Below, one piece after another: positions 1,679-20,247 of a stretch of DNA of 64,000 nt; position 1 is the stretch's first letter, and every line of letters starts with the position of its first letter. The DNA lies in the IMG/VR virus record IMGVR_UViG_3300045988_121917, positions 1 through 64,000 of that record; one strand, written 5' to 3'. Under the pieces are notes generated by a model. It searched no databases, was not told the origin of the DNA, and was given only the letters and a program-made list of their open reading frames with translations. A program made the translations under genes and the position numbers. This DNA is from a virus.

Positions 1679-3211
1679 ATGAATATTTTAAGTTCAATTT
1701 TTCCATTTATCCCTGTAATTATTATTGCAGTGGCATTGATTGTGATCCTTGCGACAGGATATGTAAAGTCCTCACCTGATGTAGCTTATATCATCTCTGG
1801 TCCGCACAAGAAACCTCGAATCTTGATTGGTAAATCCGGTATTAAGATTCCTTTCTTTGAGAAACTCGATAAGTTGTCTCTTGGTGCGATTCAGATTGAT
1901 GTAAAAACTCGTACCGCTGTTCCAACAGCAGAATACATTAACGTAAAAGTTGATTCTACTGTTTCTGTACAGGTTGGAAGAACTGATGAAATGATTGCAC
2001 TTGCGGCTCAGAACTTCTTGAATGTTAAACGTGAAGTAATTGCAGAAAGAATCAATGACCTTTTGGAAGGTAATATTCGTGAAATCGTTGGTCAGATGAA
2101 ACTGACTGAGATGGTATCTGATAGAAAATCGTTTAGCGAAAAAGTCCAGCAGAATGTAGTTCCTGATCTTGCCAGATTCGGACTTGAGCTTGTTTCCTTT
2201 AATGTTCAGAACTTTTCTGATGAGGGTGGCGTTATTGATAACTTAGGTATTGATAACGTTGAGCAGATTAGAAAGAATGCAGCAATCGCTAAGTCTGATG
2301 CACAGAGAGAAATCGCTGTTGCTGAAGCAGCCAATGCAAAGAAATCTAATGATGCTAAGGTTCAGGCAGCTGAGGAAATTGCAGTTTGTAACAACGAGTT
2401 CGAGATGAAACAGGCAGACCTCAAGAAAACTGCTGATACTGCAAAGGCTCAGGCTAATGCGGCACAGGCAATTGAGGAAGAGAAACAGCGTCAGTTAAGA
2501 GACGTTGCTGCTACTGAAGCAGATATTGCTCGTCAGGAAAAGCAGATTGAGTTGAAAGAAAGAGAAGTTGCTATTAAAGAGCGTGCTCTGGAAGCTGAAG
2601 TTAAGAAAACTGCTGAAGCTGAGAAGTATGCAGCACAGCAGAGGGCAGATGCTAAACTGTATGAGACTCAGAAGAAATCTGAAGCTGAGTTGTTCGAGAG
2701 AACAAAACAGGCAGAAGCTGCGCTTGCAGAAGCACAGAGAGATGCAGATGCTAAGAAAGCTCTTGCAGAAGCCGTAAAAGCACAGGGTGAAGCTGATGCA
2801 GCTGCAGCAAAAGTAAAAGGTGAAGCAGAAGCTGCTGCTATTAGAGCTAAACTTGAAGCTGAGGCTGAAGGTCTTCAGAAGAAGGCAGAGGCTATGAAGC
2901 AGTATGGTGAAGCTGCTAAGCAGGACATGCAGTTACAGGCACTTAAAGTGTACTTCGAGCAGTTACCGGCAATTGCTGAAGCTGTTGGTAAAGGATACAC
3001 AAATGTTGATAAGATTATGATGTTCGGTGGAGACACCTCTAAGCTTGCTGGTGACATCATGACCAATGTAACTCAGGTATCTGAAGGACTGAGTGAATCT
3101 CTTGGAATCGACCTGAAGGCTCTTCTGGCTGGTTTCATGGGTGGTAACTTAGCCGCAAACAAAGGCGTAACTATTAACGCTGATACAGTTGTTGCTCCGA
3201 CTGAAGAGTAA
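1679..3211 (+). CDS. SPFH/band-7 flotillin-like protein
   Basis: N-terminal TM segment, SPFH-like core, and a long Ala/Glu/Lys-rich coiled coil typical of flotillin/YqiK. Strong RBS AAAAGGAG. Locally GC-richer codon usage. Confidence 0.7.
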   Translation: MNILSSIFPFIPVIIIAVALIVILATGYVKSSPDVAYIISGPHKKPRILIGKSGIKIPFFEKLDKLSLGAIQIDVKTRTAVPTAEYINVKVDSTVSVQVGRTDEMIALAAQNFLNVKREVIAERINDLLEGNIREIVGQMKLTEMVSDRKSFSEKVQQNVVPDLARFGLELVSFNVQNFSDEGGVIDNLGIDNVEQIRKNAAIAKSDAQREIAVAEAANAKKSNDAKVQAAEEIAVCNNEFEMKQADLKKTADTAKAQANAAQAIEEEKQRQLRDVAATEADIARQEKQIELKEREVAIKERALEAEVKKTAEAEKYAAQQRADAKLYETQKKSEAELFERTKQAEAALAEAQRDADAKKALAEAVKAQGEADAAAAKVKGEAEAAAIRAKLEAEAEGLQKKAEAMKQYGEAAKQDMQLQALKVYFEQLPAIAEAVGKGYTNVDKIMMFGGDTSKLAGDIMTNVTQVSEGLSESLGIDLKALLAGFMGGNLAANKGVTINADTVVAPTEE

Positions 3212-3667: not shown

Positions 3668-3758
3668 TGCCAGAAAATTCGGGCTCGTAGGCGCCCTCAG
3701 CGGTCGTTGCCGCTTAAAAATCGCACCTACCAATTTTTTTTAGCAAAATGTCCCCTTT

Positions 3759-3787
3759 TTGATTTTCCCTTATTTTTGTGATATAAT
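3759..3787 (+). promoter_or_regulatory. sigma70-type promoter TTGATT-N17-TGaTATAAT
   Basis: -35 at 3759-3764, 17-nt spacer, extended -10 at 3779-3787, then RBS AAGGAGG of the gene at 3817. Confidence 0.65.
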
Positions 3788-3816
3788 GTTTTTATATAAT
3801 ATAAGGAGGACTTAAT

Positions 3817-4275
3817 ATGAGACAAGAACCTAAGTTCTACTGGGACGATACTACTAAAACTGCAACTTGCATTTTAGCAGATGAAAATAATATATTTACA
3901 GGTATTGCCAGCGTACATCCAGATGATATGGATATGGCTAATGAAAAAACTGGATATCAAATCGCTTTATGGAGAGCAGAAATTAAATATTATACTCATG
4001 TTCGTGACAATGAGTTAAAGCCAGCTCTTAAAGCATTAAAAAAAGTGATGGATGAAATGAAGTATAGTAAAAATTTTAATCCAAAATCTTACGAAAATAG
4101 GTCTTTGCAGAGAAACTTCTATCAAGTAGAATCTGACTTAGATACAGTTCGTGATTTGCTAGCTCATACTAAGCAAAAACTTAAACAGTATATTTCTGAA
4201 AAAGAAAAATTCTATCAAAAAATTAGAGCCAATAGAACAAAGAAGAACGATGTAGGACAAAAACCTTCAATTTAA
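3817..4275 (+). CDS. hypothetical protein
   Basis: 152-aa ORF with strong RBS AAGGAGG. Confidence 0.5.
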   Translation: MRQEPKFYWDDTTKTATCILADENNIFTGIASVHPDDMDMANEKTGYQIALWRAEIKYYTHVRDNELKPALKALKKVMDEMKYSKNFNPKSYENRSLQRNFYQVESDLDTVRDLLAHTKQKLKQYISEKEKFYQKIRANRTKKNDVGQKPSI

Positions 4276-4323
4276 TCTCTCTATTTTCAAATATATATAT
4301 AAGGAGTTAAAAAGGAGGAATGA

Positions 4324-4572
4324 ATGATTCAAAACTTAATATTTTTTATTTTAGGAATAATTTTTATTGAATTAATAATTCCTGTAATAGAGGCTCTAAC
4401 AATAGTAATTGTCACTGCTTTAGAGGTTGCTAAAGGCAAACTAAACATGATAATTTCTAAATATAATATACAAATCCAAAAAATGTCAGAAGAACTTGAG
4501 CCAGAAAATACACCCACTATTGGGTTTGTAGTACAAAATAATGAACCAGAGGAAGAAGAGGAAGACGAATGA
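4324..4572 (+). CDS. small membrane protein with acidic tail
   Basis: Hydrophobic N-terminus (LIFFILGIIFIELIIPVIEALTIVIV), C-terminal EEEEDE. RBS AAGGAGG. Confidence 0.4.
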   Translation: MIQNLIFFILGIIFIELIIPVIEALTIVIVTALEVAKGKLNMIISKYNIQIQKMSEELEPENTPTIGFVVQNNEPEEEEEDE

Positions 4573-5816
4573 AATTTTATGACACATGTGCATTATTAGA
4601 TAACTTTGAAACTATGCCAGAAGAGAAGTTCATCATATCTTCTATTACATTAGCGGAACTTGAGAAGATTAAAACATCAACTTCTAAAGATTCTGAAGTT
4701 AAATATATTGCAAGGAAAATCCTATCTTTTTTAAATGCTAATCCCGCAGAATATGAAGTTGTATTATATAAAACATTTTTTATTTATCCCTTTACTGAAA
4801 AAGGATTTGAAGTAAATAATGATATTAAAATTTTAGCAACTGCATATTCTTATTTCAATAATTTAAAAATAAGCGAAAGAGAAAATTTTTTCTTTGTAAC
4901 GAATGATTTAACTTTAAAAGTTACTGCTACAGCATTTTTACCAGATCAATGTATTGTATCTATGTATCCTCCAAAAGATGATTATAGTGGATATAAAGAA
5001 ATTATAATGGATGATGAAATGATGTCTGATTTTTATTCTAATCCCACTGAGAATATTTATGATTTAAAAGTAAATGAATATATTATTGTAAAAAATAAAG
5101 ATGGAAAACCTGTTGACTCTGCTGTATGGACAGGTTCTGAATATCGTCATACTCAATTTAGAAGTTTTAATTCTAAATGGTTTGGTGAAGTTAAACCACT
5201 TAAAGGAGATATTTATCAGACCCTTGTCGCAGATAGCTTTACAAATAATAAAATAACTCTGGTAAAAGGACCTGCGGGATCGGGTAAAACATACCTATCT
5301 CTTGGATACTTAATGAGCCAATTAGAGCGTGGCAAGATTGATAAAATTATTATTTTCTGTAATACAGTTGCTACAAAAAATTCTGCTAAATTAGGATATT
5401 TACCAGGTACTAAAGATGAAAAACTTTTAGATTCACAAATTGGAAATGTCCTTGCAAGTAAAATAGGAAGTCGAATTGAATTAGAAAGATTAATGGATGA
5501 AGAACAAATTGTTTTACTTCCATTCTCTGATATTAGAGGTTATGACACTACTGGAATGAATGCTGGGATATATATTTCAGAAGCTCAAAATCTTGATATT
5601 ACACTTATGAAACTTGCTTTACAAAGAATTGGTGAAGATAGCATATGTATTATAGATGGAGATGAAAAAGCGCAAGTTGATGATATTGCATTTGCCGGAA
5701 ATAATAATGGTATGAGACGAGTATCAAAAGTCTATCGAGGCGAAGATATATATGGTGAAATTGAATTAAAAATGATTCATCGTTCTAAAATTGCTAAAAT
5801 TGCAGAAAGATTATAA
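4569..5816 (+). CDS. phoH: PIN-domain / PhoH-like ATPase fusion (YlaK-like)
   Basis: N-terminal PIN-like region, then Walker A GPAGSGKT and the PhoH motif LGYLPGTKDEKL. Confidence 0.75.
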   Translation: MKFYDTCALLDNFETMPEEKFIISSITLAELEKIKTSTSKDSEVKYIARKILSFLNANPAEYEVVLYKTFFIYPFTEKGFEVNNDIKILATAYSYFNNLKISERENFFFVTNDLTLKVTATAFLPDQCIVSMYPPKDDYSGYKEIIMDDEMMSDFYSNPTENIYDLKVNEYIIVKNKDGKPVDSAVWTGSEYRHTQFRSFNSKWFGEVKPLKGDIYQTLVADSFTNNKITLVKGPAGSGKTYLSLGYLMSQLERGKIDKIIIFCNTVATKNSAKLGYLPGTKDEKLLDSQIGNVLASKIGSRIELERLMDEEQIVLLPFSDIRGYDTTGMNAGIYISEAQNLDITLMKLALQRIGEDSICIIDGDEKAQVDDIAFAGNNNGMRRVSKVYRGEDIYGEIELKMIHRSKIAKIAERL

Positions 5817-15943: not shown

Positions 15944-16138
15944 ATGAATAAGAAAGAAATCAAGAATTTAGCTAAACAAATCGCAAAGGCTGAATTAATT
16001 ATTCAGAATTCCACTGATCAAAAGGAAAGAAAATATGCGATGGATACAATAATTGCTTTATCCAATAAGCTCTCCTCATTAGAGGAAATAGAACGTGTCG
16101 ATGAGATGGTTCAAAAAATTTTAAAAAATAATTCTTGA
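15944..16138 (+). CDS. hypothetical small protein
   Basis: 64-aa ORF downstream of the promoter. Confidence 0.35.
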   Translation: MNKKEIKNLAKQIAKAELIIQNSTDQKERKYAMDTIIALSNKLSSLEEIERVDEMVQKILKNNS

Positions 16139-16163
16139 CTTAAAAATATTTTTTTGATATAAT
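16135..16163 (+). promoter_or_regulatory. sigma70-type promoter TTGACT-N17-TGaTATAAT
   Basis: Perfect -35, spacing and -10 upstream of the gene at 16237. Confidence 0.7.
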
Positions 16164-16236: not shown

Positions 16237-16512
16237 ATGGCAAAAATGAAAGAAAATTCACGTAAAGTATTTGAGTATTTAAAGACTATCGGAGATGCAA
16301 AGGTTACAGCAGCAGATGTAGCAGAGGCACTCGGAATTGAGAAGAAACGTGTAGATGGAATCTTTACTTCCGCTATTCAGAGAAAAGGTCTTGGAGTTCG
16401 TACTCCTGCAGAAGTTGAGCTTGAGGACGGAAGTCATAAGGCAGTTAAGTTCTTGTCTCTTACACCAGCTGGCATGAGCTTCGACCTAGACGCTGAAGAT
16501 GAAGCTGAGTAA
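16237..16512 (+). CDS. small acidic HTH-like protein
   Basis: 91 aa. TAADVAEALGIEKKRVDG resembles an HTH, with an acidic C-terminal tail DLDAEDEAE. Strong RBS AAAGGAG. Own promoter and terminator. Higher GC than neighbours. Confidence 0.5.
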   Translation: MAKMKENSRKVFEYLKTIGDAKVTAADVAEALGIEKKRVDGIFTSAIQRKGLGVRTPAEVELEDGSHKAVKFLSLTPAGMSFDLDAEDEAE

Positions 16513-16538
16513 TTAAATTATTTTTGTAAGATAAATTA

Positions 16539-16571
16539 AAAGAGATAAGGTAATACTTATCTCTTTTTTTA
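16539..16571 (+). terminator. rho-independent terminator
   Basis: AAAGAGATAAGGTAATACTTATCTCTTTTTTT hairpin with T-run. Confidence 0.85.
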
Positions 16572-16578
16572 ACAAAAT

Positions 16579-17571
16579 ATGATTACTGTAATTATAGCAA
16601 TTTTTTGTCTTATATTGGGGGCTGGGTTAGTATATCTGTTTATGCAACCAAAAGTCAAAGTTACTCAAGAGGAAGATAAAGAAATTCTTGAAAAGAATAA
16701 AGCCGTTCAATTTGAGTTACAAGCAATGGAGCAAAGAACGGATTACTTAAAAGAGCAATATGAACAAAAATTGCAAGAATATAAACAATTAAAACAAGAT
16801 GTTGATAAGGAATATAAGGCTTCAGAAGAAAATGCGAAAAAATATTATCAACAAATGCTTGATTTTTATAAACAAAAATTTCACACTGATATAGAAGAAA
16901 TTCATGCTATTTTTATGAATACCAAACATAGTTTAGAAGATAGCTATGAAGAATTGGCTAAAGATTTAGTACAAGATTATTTGGATAAAGAGCAAGAAAG
17001 CATCCAAAAGATAAAAAAATTAAATGAAAAAATTCAATTTGAAGAATCTCAGCTAGAGGACTTGCGGCATAAGGTAGAGGCCGCAGTTGCGTATGATAAA
17101 CGCAATGAAGAAAATAAGAATAAAACTGATTTTTATAAATTAAATTTAGCTCAAGATGATTTAGATGAAATTTATGAATTAAGGAAAATTATTTCTCATT
17201 TTAGAAATCCTGAACCTGTAAATAAGGTTATATGGAAAACATATTATGAGAAACCTTATACTGATTTAGTTGGTAGAGTAATTGGTTCTGGTATTCATTG
17301 CGGTATTTATAAAATCACAAATTTACAAAATAATATGTGTTATGTCGGACAAAGTACGAATATTGCTGAACGTTGGAAACAGCATATTAAGCGTGGATTG
17401 GGCGCAGATACTCCGACCCGCAATAAACTTTATCCTATTATGCAGGCTGTTGGAGTTGAAAATTTTTCATTTGAAATCATTGAAGAATGTACAAAATCTC
17501 AATTAAATGATAGAGAAGATTATTGGCAAGATTTTTTTAAAGCAAAAGAATTTGGTTATAGTATAAAATAA
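16579..17571 (+). CDS. membrane-anchored coiled-coil protein with C-terminal GIY-YIG nuclease domain
   Basis: N-terminal TM helix, about 200 aa of K/E/Q-rich coiled coil, then GIYKITNL...YVGQS...RWKQH...ENFSFEIIEEC. This is paralogous to the GIY-YIG domain of the 19588 gene. Confidence 0.6.
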   Translation: MITVIIAIFCLILGAGLVYLFMQPKVKVTQEEDKEILEKNKAVQFELQAMEQRTDYLKEQYEQKLQEYKQLKQDVDKEYKASEENAKKYYQQMLDFYKQKFHTDIEEIHAIFMNTKHSLEDSYEELAKDLVQDYLDKEQESIQKIKKLNEKIQFEESQLEDLRHKVEAAVAYDKRNEENKNKTDFYKLNLAQDDLDEIYELRKIISHFRNPEPVNKVIWKTYYEKPYTDLVGRVIGSGIHCGIYKITNLQNNMCYVGQSTNIAERWKQHIKRGLGADTPTRNKLYPIMQAVGVENFSFEIIEECTKSQLNDREDYWQDFFKAKEFGYSIK

Positions 17572-18196: not shown

Positions 18197-19093
18197 ATGA
18201 AATTTGAAAATATAAAAGTTTATAATTTTGAAAATGCTTTAAGAGGAATGAGAAATCCAAAAAATTCTTGGAATTTAAGCGATAGTTATTTTGGACTTAT
18301 TAATATAGACGATGATGAGCATGATTATGAAGTTGCTGAAGAGTGGGTTCAGAAAAAATTCCCTAATTATCCATCTAATGCAGACAATGAAGCCCTTATG
18401 GCTCAAGAAGAATATGATAGATGGCTTTTAAACAATGGTATTCTTGAAATTAATTTTGACCATCAATTGGCTAATGTCGCTTTTATTGGTCCGAATGATA
18501 TGAAGCTTGCTAAGGCTCTTATTAATGGCGGTTCCGAACATAGAAAATTTTTAAGACAAATTATGGTAACAGTTGACATTACAGCCCCACTTTTCTGGTG
18601 GAAGGAATTTGATACTTATAAAGTAGGTACTACAGCTAATTCTACTTCTACAATGCATAAACTTACGAGCAAGCCAATCACAAAAGATTGCTTTGAAATT
18701 GATGATTATGACCAAGATTTATCTGTCGATTTTACAGACCAATCTCTTGCTGGAGAAAATGGTTTTACTGACCACTGGCATATGGATATGTTTGTTGATG
18801 ACCTTATTGATAGATTAGAAGAACTTAGACTTGCTTATTTACAAACTAAAGATAAACGCTATTGGAAAGAACTCGTTCGTTGGTTACCAGAGTCTTGGCT
18901 TCAGACAAGAACTGTTACAATGAATTATGAAAATGTTTTGGCTATGGTTCATCAGAGAGGCCATCATAAACTTACAGAATGGTCTGGAGATGGCGAAGAG
19001 TTTATCAATGAAAGTTTCATTAAATTTGCTCATTCTTTACCTTATTCTGATGATTTTATCTTTATAGATAACAATACAACAGAAAGTAAGTAA
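18197..19093 (+). CDS. ThyX-fold (flavin-dependent thymidylate synthase-like) protein, apparently without the canonical RHRxxxS motif
   Basis: From memory, EHRKFLRQIMVTVDITAPLFWWKEF and VRWLPESWLQTRTVTMNYENVLAMVHQRG align with ThyX conserved blocks. DTYKV sits where RHR normally is. Confidence 0.4.
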   Translation: MKFENIKVYNFENALRGMRNPKNSWNLSDSYFGLINIDDDEHDYEVAEEWVQKKFPNYPSNADNEALMAQEEYDRWLLNNGILEINFDHQLANVAFIGPNDMKLAKALINGGSEHRKFLRQIMVTVDITAPLFWWKEFDTYKVGTTANSTSTMHKLTSKPITKDCFEIDDYDQDLSVDFTDQSLAGENGFTDHWHMDMFVDDLIDRLEELRLAYLQTKDKRYWKELVRWLPESWLQTRTVTMNYENVLAMVHQRGHHKLTEWSGDGEEFINESFIKFAHSLPYSDDFIFIDNNTTESK

Positions 19094-19587: not shown

Positions 19588-20247
19588 ATGTCTATAGGAA
19601 TTTATAAAATTGAAAACTTAATTAACCATAAGATTTATATTGGTCAAAGTATAGAAATTGAAAAAAGATGGCAAAAACATCTTAATGCAAAAGATAATTT
19701 TGTTATTCATAAAGCATTACAAAAATATGGAAAAGAAAATTTTTCTTTTCAGATTATAGAAGAATGTGATTTATTAGACTTAGATAATAAAGAGCAATAT
19801 TGGATTAATTATTATAATAGTTTAATCCCAAATGGATATAATATGATTCCAGGTGGGAGTAATGGAGCTGGATTTGCAAAAGGGAAAAAAGTCTTACAAT
19901 ATACTTTAGATGGAGCTTTTATAAAAGAATATAACAGTGCTAATCAAGCTAGTAATCAAACAGGAGTTTGTCATTCTGATATATGCAAATGTTGTAGAGG
20001 AGATGCTCCAAGAGCAGGAGAATATCAATGGAAATATTCTGGAGATGATAAAGAAATTAAGCCTATTAAAGTAAGAACGGATTTTTCTGTTTTACAAATA
20101 GATAAAAATACTGATGAAATTATAAAAGAATTTTCTTCACTAAAAGAGGCTTTTGAACAGACTCATATTGCGAAATCTATTATCTGTAGAGTTTGTAATG
20201 GTAAAGGCAAAACTGCTGGTGGATTTAAGTGGAAATATAAAAAATAA
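19588..20247 (+). CDS. GIY-YIG homing endonuclease (free-standing)
   Basis: IGIYKIENL...IYIGQS...RWQKH...ENFSFQIIEEC at the N-terminus. RBS GAGGAGG. C-terminal region carries a repeated GxKWKY motif. Confidence 0.75.
   Translation: MSIGIYKIENLINHKIYIGQSIEIEKRWQKHLNAKDNFVIHKALQKYGKENFSFQIIEECDLLDLDNKEQYWINYYNSLIPNGYNMIPGGSNGAGFAKGKKVLQYTLDGAFIKEYNSANQASNQTGVCHSDICKCCRGDAPRAGEYQWKYSGDDKEIKPIKVRTDFSVLQIDKNTDEIIKEFSSLKEAFEQTHIAKSIICRVCNGKGKTAGGFKWKYKK

What the first reader, a model, noticed from the sequence alone, without database searches (positions are those of the whole stretch)
16579..17571. GIY-YIG nuclease domain at the C-terminus of a membrane-anchored coiled-coil protein
Homing-type GIY-YIG enzymes normally carry the catalytic domain in the first residues, followed by DNA-binding modules. 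Here a TM helix and about 200 aa of coiled coil precede a complete GIY-YIG core (GIY...YVG...R...H...E). That core is a close paralog of the N-terminal domain of the free-standing endonuclease at 19588-20247 (GIYKITNL/GIYKIENL, ENFSFEIIEEC/ENFSFQIIEEC).

Either a homing-endonuclease gene has fused in-frame to an upstream membrane protein gene, or this is a genuinely new membrane-tethered nuclease. Such a nuclease could be relevant to host DNA degradation or superinfection exclusion.
Basis: seen in the sequence. Interest (0 to 1): 0.6.

Follow-up and report, generated by a model that had tools for sequence, protein, structure and literature searches.

The report
Membrane-tethered GIY-YIG nuclease of gut phages
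This gene encodes a DNA-cutting enzyme of the homing-endonuclease type that is permanently fused to a membrane anchor and a long helical stalk; it is a conserved, fixed-position gene of a large group of uncultured gut phages rather than a selfish mobile gene, and it resembles in layout, but not in sequence, the recently described bacterial defence nuclease SNIPE.

Summary
ORF 16579-17571 (+) encodes 330 aa: one N-terminal TM helix (aa 2-22), a Gly/Pro-free amphipathic helix (aa 24-180), a conserved two-helix extension (aa 186-235), and a complete I-TevI-type GIY-YIG core (aa 241-330) that ends the protein.

It is not an assembly or recent-fusion artefact. At least 838 protein clusters (50% identity) and at least 504 IMG/VR contigs carry the same full-length architecture, always in 130-200 kb gut phage genomes. 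In 67 of 70 loci it directly follows the same 91-aa gene in the replication module. The catalytic residues are invariant in 124/124 members, and dN/dS is about 0.1 in both halves. In-frame TAGs in relatives are recoded Gln codons, not gene boundaries.

The free-standing endonuclease at 19588-20247 is only 40% identical. It is sporadic in relatives, so it is a true mobile gene and not a close paralog.

The charge distribution predicts N-out/C-in topology, so the nuclease faces the cytoplasm. The closest functional analogue is SNIPE, which cleaves phage DNA during injection. There is no DUF4041 and no sequence similarity, so this is not a SNIPE member.

Best guess, at about 0.35-0.4: a spatially confined nuclease that excludes superinfecting DNA. 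Rivals are host-DNA degradation and membrane-associated genome processing.

The parts
16579..17571 (+). Complete gene for the 330-aa membrane-anchored GIY-YIG nuclease (stop codon included)
   Evidence: ORF list and sequence. An identical protein occurs on 9 metagenomic contigs. Full-length homologues.
16582..16644 (+). N-terminal signal-anchor TM helix, aa 2-22 (predicted N-out/C-in)
   Evidence: KD19 maximum of 2.79. 130 of 149 family representatives have such a helix in the first 40 aa. Mean K/R count is 0.08 before the helix and 3.2 in the 12 aa after it, and 121 of 124 members have more after than before. SNIPE shows the same charge pattern, and its N-out/C-in topology was shown experimentally (PMC13190303).
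16648..17118 (+). Long amphipathic helical stalk, aa 24-180 (probable coiled coil)
   Evidence: AF2 predicts a single helix over aa 2-180. The segment has 0 Gly. Periodicity of 3.5-3.67 gives a median z of 3.8. The spacer from TM end to GIY motif has a median of 216 aa and an IQR of 206-226, although the top-residue frequency is only 0.30. dN/dS is 0.06-0.07.
17134..17298 (+). Conserved two-helix extension, aa 186-240, that packs onto the nuclease core and is specific to this family
17299..17568 (+). I-TevI-type GIY-YIG catalytic core, aa 241-330, which ends the protein with no DNA-binding module after it
16538..16571 (+). Stem-loop followed by a T-run (terminator-like) just upstream of the start codon. 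No Shine-Dalgarno sequence lies between it and the ATG.
   Evidence: Pattern scan and sequence. An equivalent hairpin plus T-run, with different stem sequences, sits at the same place in L006, L011, L012, L013, L015, L017, L018, L020, L021 and L036.
16237..16512 (+). Conserved 91-aa gene, always immediately upstream. It is a possible partner or co-regulated gene of unknown function, with an acidic C-terminal tail.
   Evidence: It is 43-81% identical in syntenic MAG loci. It lies directly upstream in 67 of 70 IMG/VR loci. It has no significant Pfam or PHROG family. A promoter-like site matching 11 of 12 positions lies at 16135-16163.
19588..20247 (+). Free-standing GIY-YIG homing endonuclease (GIY-YIG + NUMOD1 + I-HmuI NUMOD-like). 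This is the comparison gene and not part of the anchored nuclease.
   Evidence: Pfam and TIGR01453 hits. It is 40% identical over 81 aa to the anchored domain. It is sporadic and at varying positions in relatives.

Best explanation
SHOWN: The gene encodes an anciently domesticated I-TevI-type GIY-YIG nuclease. It has lost the usual C-terminal DNA-binding modules of homing endonucleases. In their place it carries, on its N-terminal side, a signal-anchor TM helix, a helical stalk of about 160 residues with conserved length, and a family-specific two-helix extension. It is a fixed-position gene under purifying selection in the replication/nucleotide-metabolism module of a large clade of uncultured 130-200 kb gut phages, several of which read TAG as Gln. 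All five key catalytic residues are invariant across the family.

PREDICTED: The topology is N-out/C-in, so the nuclease hangs on the cytoplasmic face of the membrane.

INFERRED MECHANISM: An I-TevI-type catalytic domain has little DNA affinity on its own. Tethering should therefore confine cleavage to DNA that comes to the inner face of the membrane. The phage's own replicating genome, and the bulk nucleoid, would be spared. Probable dimerisation through the stalk would pair two single-strand nicking sites into a double-strand cut. The conserved terminator-like hairpin and the missing ribosome-binding site would keep expression low.

MOST LIKELY TARGET (about 0.35-0.4): DNA of a second phage entering an already infected cell. 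That would be superinfection exclusion by cleavage at the entry site. It is the mechanism shown for the architecturally analogous SNIPE, which is itself prophage-encoded.
For: Architecture.

A real and ancient fusion:
- 120 of the 120 best hits listed are the same protein family. Nearly all are 318-333 aa with 95-100% query coverage, at 50-100% identity.
- 838 representatives of 50% clusters score E<=1e-30, and nearly all of the best 150 match the profile end to end.
- At least 504 IMG/VR contigs encode a relative.

Not mobile:
- The gene order ligase, 64-aa gene, 91-aa gene, nuclease, then YorF, AAA_24, YorH and DnaB is conserved.
- The 91-aa gene lies directly upstream in 67 of 70 loci.
- The free-standing GIY-YIG genes are sporadic and move about.

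Selection: dN/dS is 0.08-0.13 overall, 0.06-0.07 for the stalk and 0.04-0.07 for the core. The catalytic residues are present in 124/124 members.

Topology: K/R averages 0.08 before the TM helix and 3.2 after it, in 121 of 124 members. SNIPE has the same pattern, and its N-periplasmic/C-cytoplasmic topology, nuclease-dependent toxicity on loss of the TM helix, and cleavage of injected DNA were shown experimentally (PMC13190303).

SNIPE's own gene sits in a lambdoid prophage.

Low-expression signals.

In one relative an insertion carrying a homing endonuclease has invaded the gene within the conserved core. Such elements typically target conserved, important genes.
Against: - No experiment exists on any family member. 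The nuclease activity, the topology and the target are all inferred.
- Superinfection-exclusion genes are usually accessory and variable. This gene is fixed inside the replication module of its clade, and its stalk is under purifying rather than diversifying selection. That fits a housekeeping phage function at least as well.
- SNIPE's specificity and DNA-binding domain, DUF4041, is absent.
- There is no sequence similarity to SNIPE: BLASTP finds nothing, hhalign gives a probability of 1%, and no PADLOC PD-lambda-1 model hits. The analogy therefore rests on layout alone.
- The extension plus core is not markedly basic (net charge about +1).
- In 73 of 124 members the Asn equivalent to I-TevI N90 is Ser. 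The effect of this on activity is unknown.
Confidence: 0.4

Rival explanations
1. Host-DNA degradation and nucleotide salvage, as with T4 EndoII. The tethered nuclease would nick or cut the host chromosome early in infection to shut the host off and feed the phage's nucleotide-metabolism enzymes. The tether or stalk would keep it away from the phage's own replicating DNA.
For: - The gene sits among nucleotide-metabolism genes in divergent lineages. ThyA plus DHFR lie two genes downstream in the L006 lineage. NrdD/NrdG follow it in phAss-1. NrdD is in the window.
- Fixed clade-wide conservation and purifying selection fit a core takeover function.
Against: - A membrane tether restricts access to the nucleoid, which is the opposite of what a bulk DNA degrader needs.
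- No DNA-modification genes were identified near the gene that would protect phage DNA. Most of the genome was not examined.
- Adjacency to nucleotide-metabolism genes may only reflect the general replication module.
Confidence: 0.25
2. Membrane-associated processing of the phage's own genome. The protein would be a catalytic counterpart of phi29 p16.7 (TM helix + coiled coil + DNA-binding head). It would anchor replicating or entering phage DNA at the membrane and nick or resolve it, for example to start recombination-dependent replication, to debranch concatemers, or to process ends after injection.
For: - It has a fixed position inside the replication operon, between the NAD-ligase gene upstream (two small genes intervene) and the YorF, AAA_24, YorH, DnaB, RecJ-like and PolIII-alpha genes downstream.
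- The whole protein, including the stalk, is under purifying selection, and stalk length is conserved.
- There is a precedent for an early phage membrane protein that recruits replicating DNA to the membrane (p16.7; PMC4974454).
Against: - No membrane-tethered resolvase or nickase is known in any phage.
- The core is closest to sequence-tolerant homing endonucleases, not to SLX1.
- A more distant relative with the same module (L040) lacks the gene, so it is not indispensable for this type of replication.
Confidence: 0.15
3. A still-mobile homing endonuclease, or a recent or artefactual in-frame fusion of one to a membrane-protein gene.
For: - The catalytic core belongs to the I-TevI/TIGR01453 homing-endonuclease subfamily.
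- The genome and its relatives carry several free-standing GIY-YIG homing genes that could act as donors. Some of these score up to 98 bits on the family's domain HMM.
- Under the standard genetic code many relatives show stop codons inside the gene.
Against: - The same full-length architecture occurs in hundreds of clusters at 28-98% identity.
- The locus is fixed in 67 of 70 cases.
- There is no NUMOD, IENR1 or HTH DNA-binding module.
- dN/dS is about 0.1 in both halves.
- The in-frame stops are all TAG, they fall at conserved Gln positions (GQA, WKQHIKRG) in both halves, and they occur in genomes with TAG recoding.
- No relative has the parts as separate genes.
Confidence: 0.03
4. A secreted or extracytoplasmic nuclease, with the hydrophobic N-terminus acting as a Sec signal peptide, as in membrane-bound competence or secreted nucleases.
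For: The protein has an N-terminal hydrophobic segment.
Against: - There is no positively charged n-region (mean K/R before the helix is 0.08).
- The hydrophobic stretch is about 21 residues long.
- A K/R cluster follows it in 121 of 124 members. This is the reverse of a signal peptide and the signature of an N-out/C-in anchor.
- A 160-residue K/E/Q-rich helix follows.
Confidence: 0.05

Closest known systems
I-TevI and TIGR01453 group I intron / free-standing GIY-YIG homing endonucleases
   Same: Same catalytic fold and subfamily.
- TIGR01453 scores 70 bits.
- Equivalents of Y6, Y17, R27, H31 and E75 are invariant.
   Different: - The core is at the C-terminus, not the N-terminus.
- There is no linker, zinc finger, NUMOD or HTH DNA-binding region.
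- It is preceded by a TM helix, a stalk and a two-helix extension.
- It has a fixed locus and clade-wide conservation instead of sporadic, mobile distribution.
- N90 is replaced by Ser in most members.
SNIPE (PD-lambda-1; DUF4041 + T5orf172/MUG113 protein), Saxton et al., Nature 2026 (PMC13190303)
   Same: - Same order of parts: short extracytoplasmic N-terminus, one TM helix with K/R after it, long helix, small helical or mixed domain, then a GIY-YIG-superfamily nuclease near the C-terminus.
- Encoded by a phage genome. SNIPE lies in a lambdoid prophage.
- Conservation rises from the N-terminus to the nuclease in both (PMC13190303).
   Different: - No DUF4041.
- The nuclease is of the PF01541/I-TevI type, not T5orf172/MUG113.
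- 330 aa against 500 aa.
- No detectable sequence similarity. BLASTP finds nothing, hhalign gives a probability of 1%, and no PADLOC model hits.
- SNIPE is an accessory defence gene. This gene is fixed in a replication module and shows no diversifying signal.
T4 endonuclease II (DenA)
   Different: - It is soluble, with no TM helix or stalk.
- It is only 14% identical.
- By my own knowledge, T4 discriminates self from host through cytosine modification. No such system was identified here.
phi29 p16.7
   Same: An early phage protein with an N-terminal TM anchor, a coiled coil and a C-terminal DNA-interacting head on the cytoplasmic side. It recruits DNA to the membrane (PMC4974454; domain layout from my own knowledge of Meijer/Salas work).
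   Different: The head is a DNA-binding domain with no nuclease. The protein is about 130 aa. There is no homology.
MMSYN1_0777 of JCVI-syn3.0
   Same: An N-terminal hydrophobic anchor followed by a GIY-YIG-like domain (PMC13621843).
   Different: It is a cellular protein. Its similarity to GIY-YIG is not significant, and its catalytic Tyr and His are replaced, so it is considered inactive. Here all catalytic residues are intact.

Membership tests
GIY-YIG nuclease superfamily (PF01541 / I-TevI lineage) | GIY and YIG motifs on the first two beta-strands | tested here: met
   G242-I243-Y244 and Y255-V256-G257. Y244 and Y255 are present in 124/124 members. Pfam scores 43 bits against a cutoff of 22.6.
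GIY-YIG nuclease superfamily (PF01541 / I-TevI lineage) | Catalytic Arg, His and metal-binding Glu (I-TevI R27, H31, E75) | tested here: met
   R265, H269 and E313 align to R27, H31 and E75. They are invariant in 124/124 members.
GIY-YIG nuclease superfamily (PF01541 / I-TevI lineage) | C-terminal Asn of the UvrC/I-TevI lineage (I-TevI N90) | tested here: inconclusive
   S328 occupies this position in the window protein. Across the family it is Ser in 73 members and Asn in 48. The functional consequence is unknown.
GIY-YIG nuclease superfamily (PF01541 / I-TevI lineage) | alpha/beta GIY-YIG fold | tested here: met
Mobile GIY-YIG homing endonuclease | N-terminal catalytic domain followed by DNA-binding modules (NUMOD, IENR1, HTH, zinc finger) | tested here: not met
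   The core is C-terminal and the protein ends 2 residues after the GY(S/N) motif. No DNA-binding Pfam family was found in 46 members. The neighbouring gene at 19588-20247 does have such modules.
Mobile GIY-YIG homing endonuclease | Sporadic, insertion-like distribution (intron-borne, or free-standing between conserved genes) | tested here: not met
   The same neighbours are found in 67 of 70 IMG/VR loci and in all syntenic MAG loci. Free-standing homologues of the 19588 gene are sporadic.
SNIPE (PD-lambda-1) | Single TM helix near the N-terminus, with the N-terminus outside and the rest cytoplasmic | tested here: inconclusive
   The TM helix is present. The charge bias predicts N-out/C-in in 121 of 124 members. 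Topology itself cannot be measured with these tools.
SNIPE (PD-lambda-1) | DUF4041 (PF13250) domain between the TM helix and the nuclease | tested here: not met
   No PF13250 hit at E<=1 in the window protein, or at E<=0.01 in 46 members. SNIPE itself hits at 1.2e-19. hhalign of the family profile against SNIPE gives a probability of 1%.
SNIPE (PD-lambda-1) | T5orf172/MUG113-type GIY-YIG nuclease domain | tested here: not met
   SNIPE matches PF10544 and PF13455. The window protein matches PF01541/TIGR01453 only. No PADLOC PD-lambda-1 model hits.
SNIPE (PD-lambda-1) | Cleaves phage DNA during injection and protects the cell | not testable with these tools
   This needs infection assays. No cultured phage or host is known for this clade.
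Sec-exported or extracellular membrane nuclease | Signal peptide with a positive n-region, a short h-region and a cleavage site | tested here: not met
   There is no K/R before the hydrophobic stretch, which is about 21 residues long, and K/R residues follow it.

The most novel reading that the evidence does not exclude
The protein is not a defence or exclusion factor at all. It would be a new kind of essential phage replication-cycle enzyme: a membrane-anchored nickase or resolvase. It would work as a catalytic analogue of phi29 p16.7, organising and processing the phage's own genome, or the host chromosome, on the inner face of the membrane. The length-conserved stalk would act as a molecular ruler. 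That would make spatial confinement of a non-specific nuclease a core feature of how a large clade of gut phages replicate.
Probability: 0.2. Interest if true: 0.8.

Novelty: new variant of a known kind. Interest (0 to 1): 0.6.

Why it matters
Membrane tethering as a way for a nuclease to tell foreign DNA from self DNA was shown experimentally only in 2026, for SNIPE. This finding shows that a second, unrelated branch of the GIY-YIG superfamily, the homing-endonuclease branch, has independently been given the same layout: TM helix, stalk, small domain, nuclease.

The resulting protein is a fixed gene of a very large, entirely uncultured clade of 130-200 kb gut phages. It occurs in at least 838 clusters at 50% identity and at least 504 IMG/VR contigs. 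It is annotated everywhere as 'hypothetical' or, wrongly, as a homing endonuclease.

It is a clean example of the domestication of a selfish nuclease. It also gives a compact (330 aa) and highly conserved test case for spatially confined DNA cleavage.

There is a practical consequence for annotation. In TAG-recoded relatives, including the GenBank record of phAss-1, the gene is split into fragments.

Tried and rejected
- Near-identical DNA in cultured phages: none (megablast). By tblastn, only phAss-1 extends beyond the GIY-YIG core.
- SNIPE membership: I recovered the SNIPE gene from published primer sequences. BLASTP, hhalign, Pfam and PADLOC all found no relationship beyond the superfamily. 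Membership is rejected, and only the analogy is kept.
- DUF4041 or any other Pfam family in the stalk or extension of 46 members: only weak, scattered coiled-coil-type hits (DivIC, ZapG-like, DUF948, PspA). I treat these as compositional.
- Fold search of the whole 330-aa model was not attempted. I re-predicted aa 180-330 with a deep alignment instead.
- The afdb50 library was unavailable, so cellular proteins sharing the two-helix extension could not be sought.
- Group I intron in the interrupted relative L124: no Rfam hit at gathering thresholds. The insertion's nature stays open.
- 'ThyA-like' label for the downstream 298-aa gene: rejected. It is not similar to the ThyA that occupies the same position in L006, and it has no Pfam or PDB match.
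- Diversifying selection on the stalk, as expected for an arms-race adaptor: not seen. dN/dS is 0.06-0.07, but this rests on only two close pairs with few substitutions.
- Search for the N-terminal module alone or with another head: every truncated hit is explained by a contig end or a recoded TAG. A distant relative simply lacks the gene. A stalk-only relative would score low, so its existence cannot be excluded.
Full report
**1. What is in the sequence**

The ORF at 16579..17571 (+) starts with ATG and encodes 330 aa.

*GIY-YIG core*
- Residues 241-322 match Pfam GIY-YIG (E 5.8e-11, 43 bits, cutoff 22.6).
- Residues 242-329 match NCBIfam TIGR01453 'group I intron endonuclease' above its cutoff (70 against 56 bits).
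- PHROGs and PADLOC hit only 'homing endonuclease' models, and only on this C-terminal part.
- A family profile finds the I-TevI catalytic domain in the PDB (E 1e-7). The alignment equates Y244, Y255, R265, H269 and E313 with I-TevI Y6, Y17, R27, H31 and E75. I-TevI N90 is replaced by S328.

*TM helix and stalk*
- The only hydrophobic segment is aa 2-22, with a Kyte-Doolittle 19-residue maximum of 2.79.
- Residues 24-185 contain no Gly and one Pro and are rich in K, E and Q.
- AlphaFold2 draws a single helix over aa 2-180.
- The hydrophobic pattern has a 3.5-3.67-residue period well above shuffled controls, with a family median z of 3.8. This fits a coiled coil, but the oligomeric state was not tested.

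*C-terminal module*
- I re-predicted aa 180-330 with a 114-sequence alignment. This gives one compact domain (pLDDT 95.6, pTM 0.90). Two helices (aa 192-205 and 212-234) pack onto the GIY-YIG core.
- Nothing in the PDB matches the two-helix extension.
- In BFVD only two uncharacterised viral proteins share the whole 148-residue module. All other hits cover about 90 residues.
- The protein stops two residues after the GY(S/N) motif, so no DNA-binding module follows the core.

The 'coiled coil' is a helix of about 157 residues plus a two-helix unit of about 55 residues that belongs to the nuclease domain. The free-standing endonuclease at 19588-20247 (GIY-YIG + NUMOD1 + I-HmuI NUMOD-like) is not a close paralog. 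It is 40% identical over 81 aa, no closer than homing endonucleases of unrelated phages at 41-42%.

**2. It is a real, old and widespread gene, not a fusion artefact**

*Spread*
- A word-indexed search returned 120 hits of the same family. Nearly all are 318-333 aa and cover 95-100% of the query.
- These hits fall into a 89-100% identity group, found on contigs up to 194-198 kb from human gut metagenomes, and a set of more divergent relatives at about 50-59% identity.
- A profile search of 1.84 billion cluster representatives found 838 proteins at E<=1e-30. Nearly all of the best 150 (238-523 bits) match the profile from the TM helix to the last residue.
- Free-standing homing endonucleases reach at most 98 bits on the domain. 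The 838 are therefore family members.
- Of 149 representatives, 130 have a TM helix in the first 40 residues. The rest are fragments.
- IMG/VR holds at least 504 contigs with a relative, many of 130-197 kb.
- In GTDB species genomes the gene occurs only in MAGs. It sits on 140-180 kb contigs binned into mutually inconsistent taxa (Clostridia, Bacilli, Mollicutes, Melainabacteria, Methanobrevibacter). These are phage genomes swept into bins. No isolate genome has it.
- Among 50,697 deposited phage genomes, only the metagenome-assembled phAss-1 has a relative that extends beyond the core. There is no DNA-level match at all.

- Read with the standard code, many relatives do show stops inside the gene. 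ORF callers split it: the C-terminal piece they report is 131-169 aa.
- Every one of these stops is TAG. They occur in both halves. They fall on conserved Gln positions ('G#A' for GQA, 'WK#HIKRG' for WKQHIKRG).
- In phAss-1, a phage assigned to the code-15 clade, eight in-frame TAGs and a terminal TGA give a 326-aa protein. It has the same TM helix, stalk, extension and core. The GenBank record splits it into 47-aa and 144-aa 'hypothetical proteins'.
- The stops are recoding, not a gene boundary.

*Synteny separates this gene from mobile endonucleases*
- In both lineages sampled from metagenomes the order is: GyrA, NAD-ligase, 64-aa gene, 88/91-aa gene, nuclease, small genes, YorF, AAA_24, YorH, DnaB.
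- The same order holds in the MAG loci.
- A homologue of the 91-aa gene lies directly upstream in 67 of 70 IMG/VR loci.
- Homologues of the free-standing endonuclease at 19588 are present or absent and sit at different places.
- A more distant relative (L040) goes GyrA, 91-aa gene, YorF with no anchored nuclease. The gene is therefore an acquisition of this clade.

*Selection*
- Against two 96%-identical relatives, dN/dS is 0.08-0.13 overall. It is 0.06-0.07 in the stalk and 0.04-0.07 in the core (few substitutions).
- Across 124 full-length representatives the top-residue frequency is 0.33 for the TM helix, 0.30 for the stalk, 0.59 for the extension and 0.68 for the core.
- The five catalytic residues are present in 124/124 members. 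The N90-equivalent position is Ser in 73 and Asn in 48.
- The stalk sequence drifts, but the distance from the TM helix to the GIY motif is kept: median 216 aa, IQR 206-226.

**3. Topology and expression signals**

- The hydrophobic segment begins a median of 2 residues from the N-terminus.
- K/R residues average 0.08 before it and 3.2 in the 12 residues after it. In 121 of 124 members there are more after than before.
- By the positive-inside rule, this is the reverse of a Sec signal peptide. It is the signature of an N-out/C-in anchor, so the stalk and nuclease should be cytoplasmic.
- SNIPE has the same pattern (MTQTPLLLAIIFLLVVLVLYIAAIKRIKK). It was shown by PhoA-LacZ-alpha fusions to be N-periplasmic and C-cytoplasmic (PMC13190303).
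- A stem-loop with a T-run (16538-16571) lies between the stop of the 91-aa gene and the ATG. No Shine-Dalgarno sequence follows it.
- Equivalent hairpins with different stem sequences occupy the same spot in ten other loci.
- The nearest strong promoter-like sites (11 of 12 positions) are upstream of the two preceding small genes.
- I infer, but have not shown, that the nuclease is made at low level by terminator read-through.

**4. How it most likely works**

*Shown:* the domain anatomy, the intact catalytic constellation, the absence of a DNA-binding module, the conservation, and the fixed locus.

*Predicted:* cytoplasm-facing tethering.

*Inferred from established knowledge of I-TevI:* the isolated catalytic domain binds DNA poorly and depends on being delivered to DNA. 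A tethered copy should therefore cut only DNA that comes to the inner face of the membrane. Each GIY-YIG site nicks one strand, so pairing through the stalk would give double-strand breaks.

The one protein with this layout that has been studied is SNIPE. [quoted passage not shown] It cleaves lambda DNA during injection, but it does not cleave a genome already in the cell (PMC13190303). SNIPE's gene lies in a lambdoid prophage, between ren and a P22AR-domain gene. It too is a phage gene that acts against other phages.

By analogy, I rank exclusion of superinfecting DNA first (about 0.35-0.4). Three points count against it:
- The gene is fixed inside a replication module.
- Its stalk shows no diversifying signal.
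- SNIPE's DUF4041 is missing.

*Rivals*
- Host-DNA degradation for nucleotide supply (about 0.25). ThyA plus DHFR lie just downstream in one lineage and NrdD/NrdG in phAss-1. T4 EndoII is a GIY-YIG enzyme. However, a tether hinders access to the nucleoid.
- Membrane-associated processing of the phage's own DNA, as a catalytic analogue of phi29 p16.7 (about 0.15).
- A still-mobile or artefactual fusion (0.03).
- An exported nuclease (0.05).

One relative (L124) has the gene interrupted inside the conserved core. The break falls after 'AVNI' and the reading frame resumes at 'ADRWKQHIKRG'. The insert is about 1.25 kb and carries its own GIY-YIG homing endonuclease. Such elements usually settle in conserved, important genes. 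This agrees with the gene's importance to the phage but does not say what it does.

**5. Comparison with known families**

- *Membership:* it is a member of the GIY-YIG superfamily, I-TevI lineage.
- *Not a homing endonuclease in organisation or behaviour:* two defining features were tested and not met.
- *Not a SNIPE family member:* DUF4041 is absent, the nuclease belongs to a different Pfam family, and sequence similarity is nil.
- *'Works like':* SNIPE is the closest analogue.
- *Literature:* the 2006 phylogenomic survey of GIY-YIG architectures lists no membrane-anchored form. The only other anchored case I found is the apparently inactive MMSYN1_0777 of JCVI-syn3.0. The phAss-1 paper does not mention the gene. 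No source names the protein beyond 'hypothetical protein'.

**6. Verdict**

The artefact or recent-fusion reading is rejected. The 'genuine membrane-tethered nuclease' reading is supported.

The finding is a new variant of a known kind: an independently evolved membrane-tethered GIY-YIG nuclease. It is notable for being a fixed gene of a very large uncultured gut-phage clade. Its function is unproven. Interest 0.6.

Noticed in passing
L012-L018, L020, L021, L029, L036, L038 (MAG loci); L001 3467-4447 (phAss-1, OQ749652): Many relatives carry in-frame TAG codons at conserved Gln positions throughout this early gene. This is genetic code 15. Standard-code gene calling truncates the gene. The GenBank phAss-1 record splits it into a 47-aa CDS and a 144-aa CDS.
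   Followed up: yes
L124 about 3750-5010 (IMGVR_UViG_3300026522_000023): The anchored nuclease gene is interrupted inside the GIY-YIG core by an insertion of about 1.25 kb. The insertion encodes its own free-standing GIY-YIG homing endonuclease, so it looks intron-like. Rfam finds no group I intron at gathering thresholds.
   Followed up: partly
window 16237-16512: A 91-aa protein with an acidic C-terminal tail is more conserved than the nuclease (up to 81% identity). It lies directly upstream in 67 of 70 loci and has no significant Pfam or PHROG family. It is also present in a distant relative that lacks the nuclease (L040), so it is not strictly coupled to it.
   Followed up: partly
window 16538-16571, and the equivalent positions in L006, L011-L013, L015, L017, L018, L020, L021 and L036: A terminator-like hairpin plus T-run sits immediately before the nuclease start codon. 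Its position and structure are conserved but its stem sequence is not. Most loci lack a Shine-Dalgarno sequence after it.
   Followed up: partly
window 19573/19588-20247: A free-standing GIY-YIG + NUMOD1 + I-HmuI-NUMOD homing endonuclease lies between the 126-aa MarR-like gene and the YorF-like gene. Homologues in relatives are sporadic and at other positions. In the L006 lineage a second one splits the GyrA gene region.
   Followed up: partly
window 18197-19093, compared with L006 7283-8667: The window has a 298-aa protein of unknown function (phrog_6721, with no Pfam or PDB match). At the same position the 50%-identity lineage has ThyA plus DHFR. The two proteins are not homologous, so this may be a non-orthologous replacement.
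   Followed up: partly
window 1679-3211: A phage-encoded SPFH/Band 7 + flotillin protein (510 aa), which is a membrane-microdomain scaffold. Any link to the membrane nuclease is unknown.
   Followed up: no
window 4569-5816: A PIN domain fused to a PhoH-like ATPase (415 aa).
   Followed up: no
window 8184-38163: The replication module resembles that of SPbeta. It comprises GyrB, GyrA, NAD-ligase, YorF-like, AAA_24, YorH-like, DnaB, a RecJ-like DHH nuclease, an SF1 helicase, a DnaE-type PolIII alpha and an anaerobic RNR (NrdD). This suggests a Firmicute-type anaerobic host.
   Followed up: partly
L011-L045 (GTDB species-representative MAGs): Contigs the size of phage genomes (140-180 kb) from this clade are binned into MAGs of unrelated taxa, including Methanobrevibacter and Melainabacteria. 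These are probably binning errors. They contaminate reference MAGs and would mislead host assignment.
   Followed up: no
L010 4001-5503 (E. coli CFSAN061770, WP_000195116.1): The SNIPE/PD-lambda-1 gene sits in a lambdoid prophage, between ren and a P22AR-domain gene. It is in the opposite orientation to its neighbours, like a moron.
   Followed up: no
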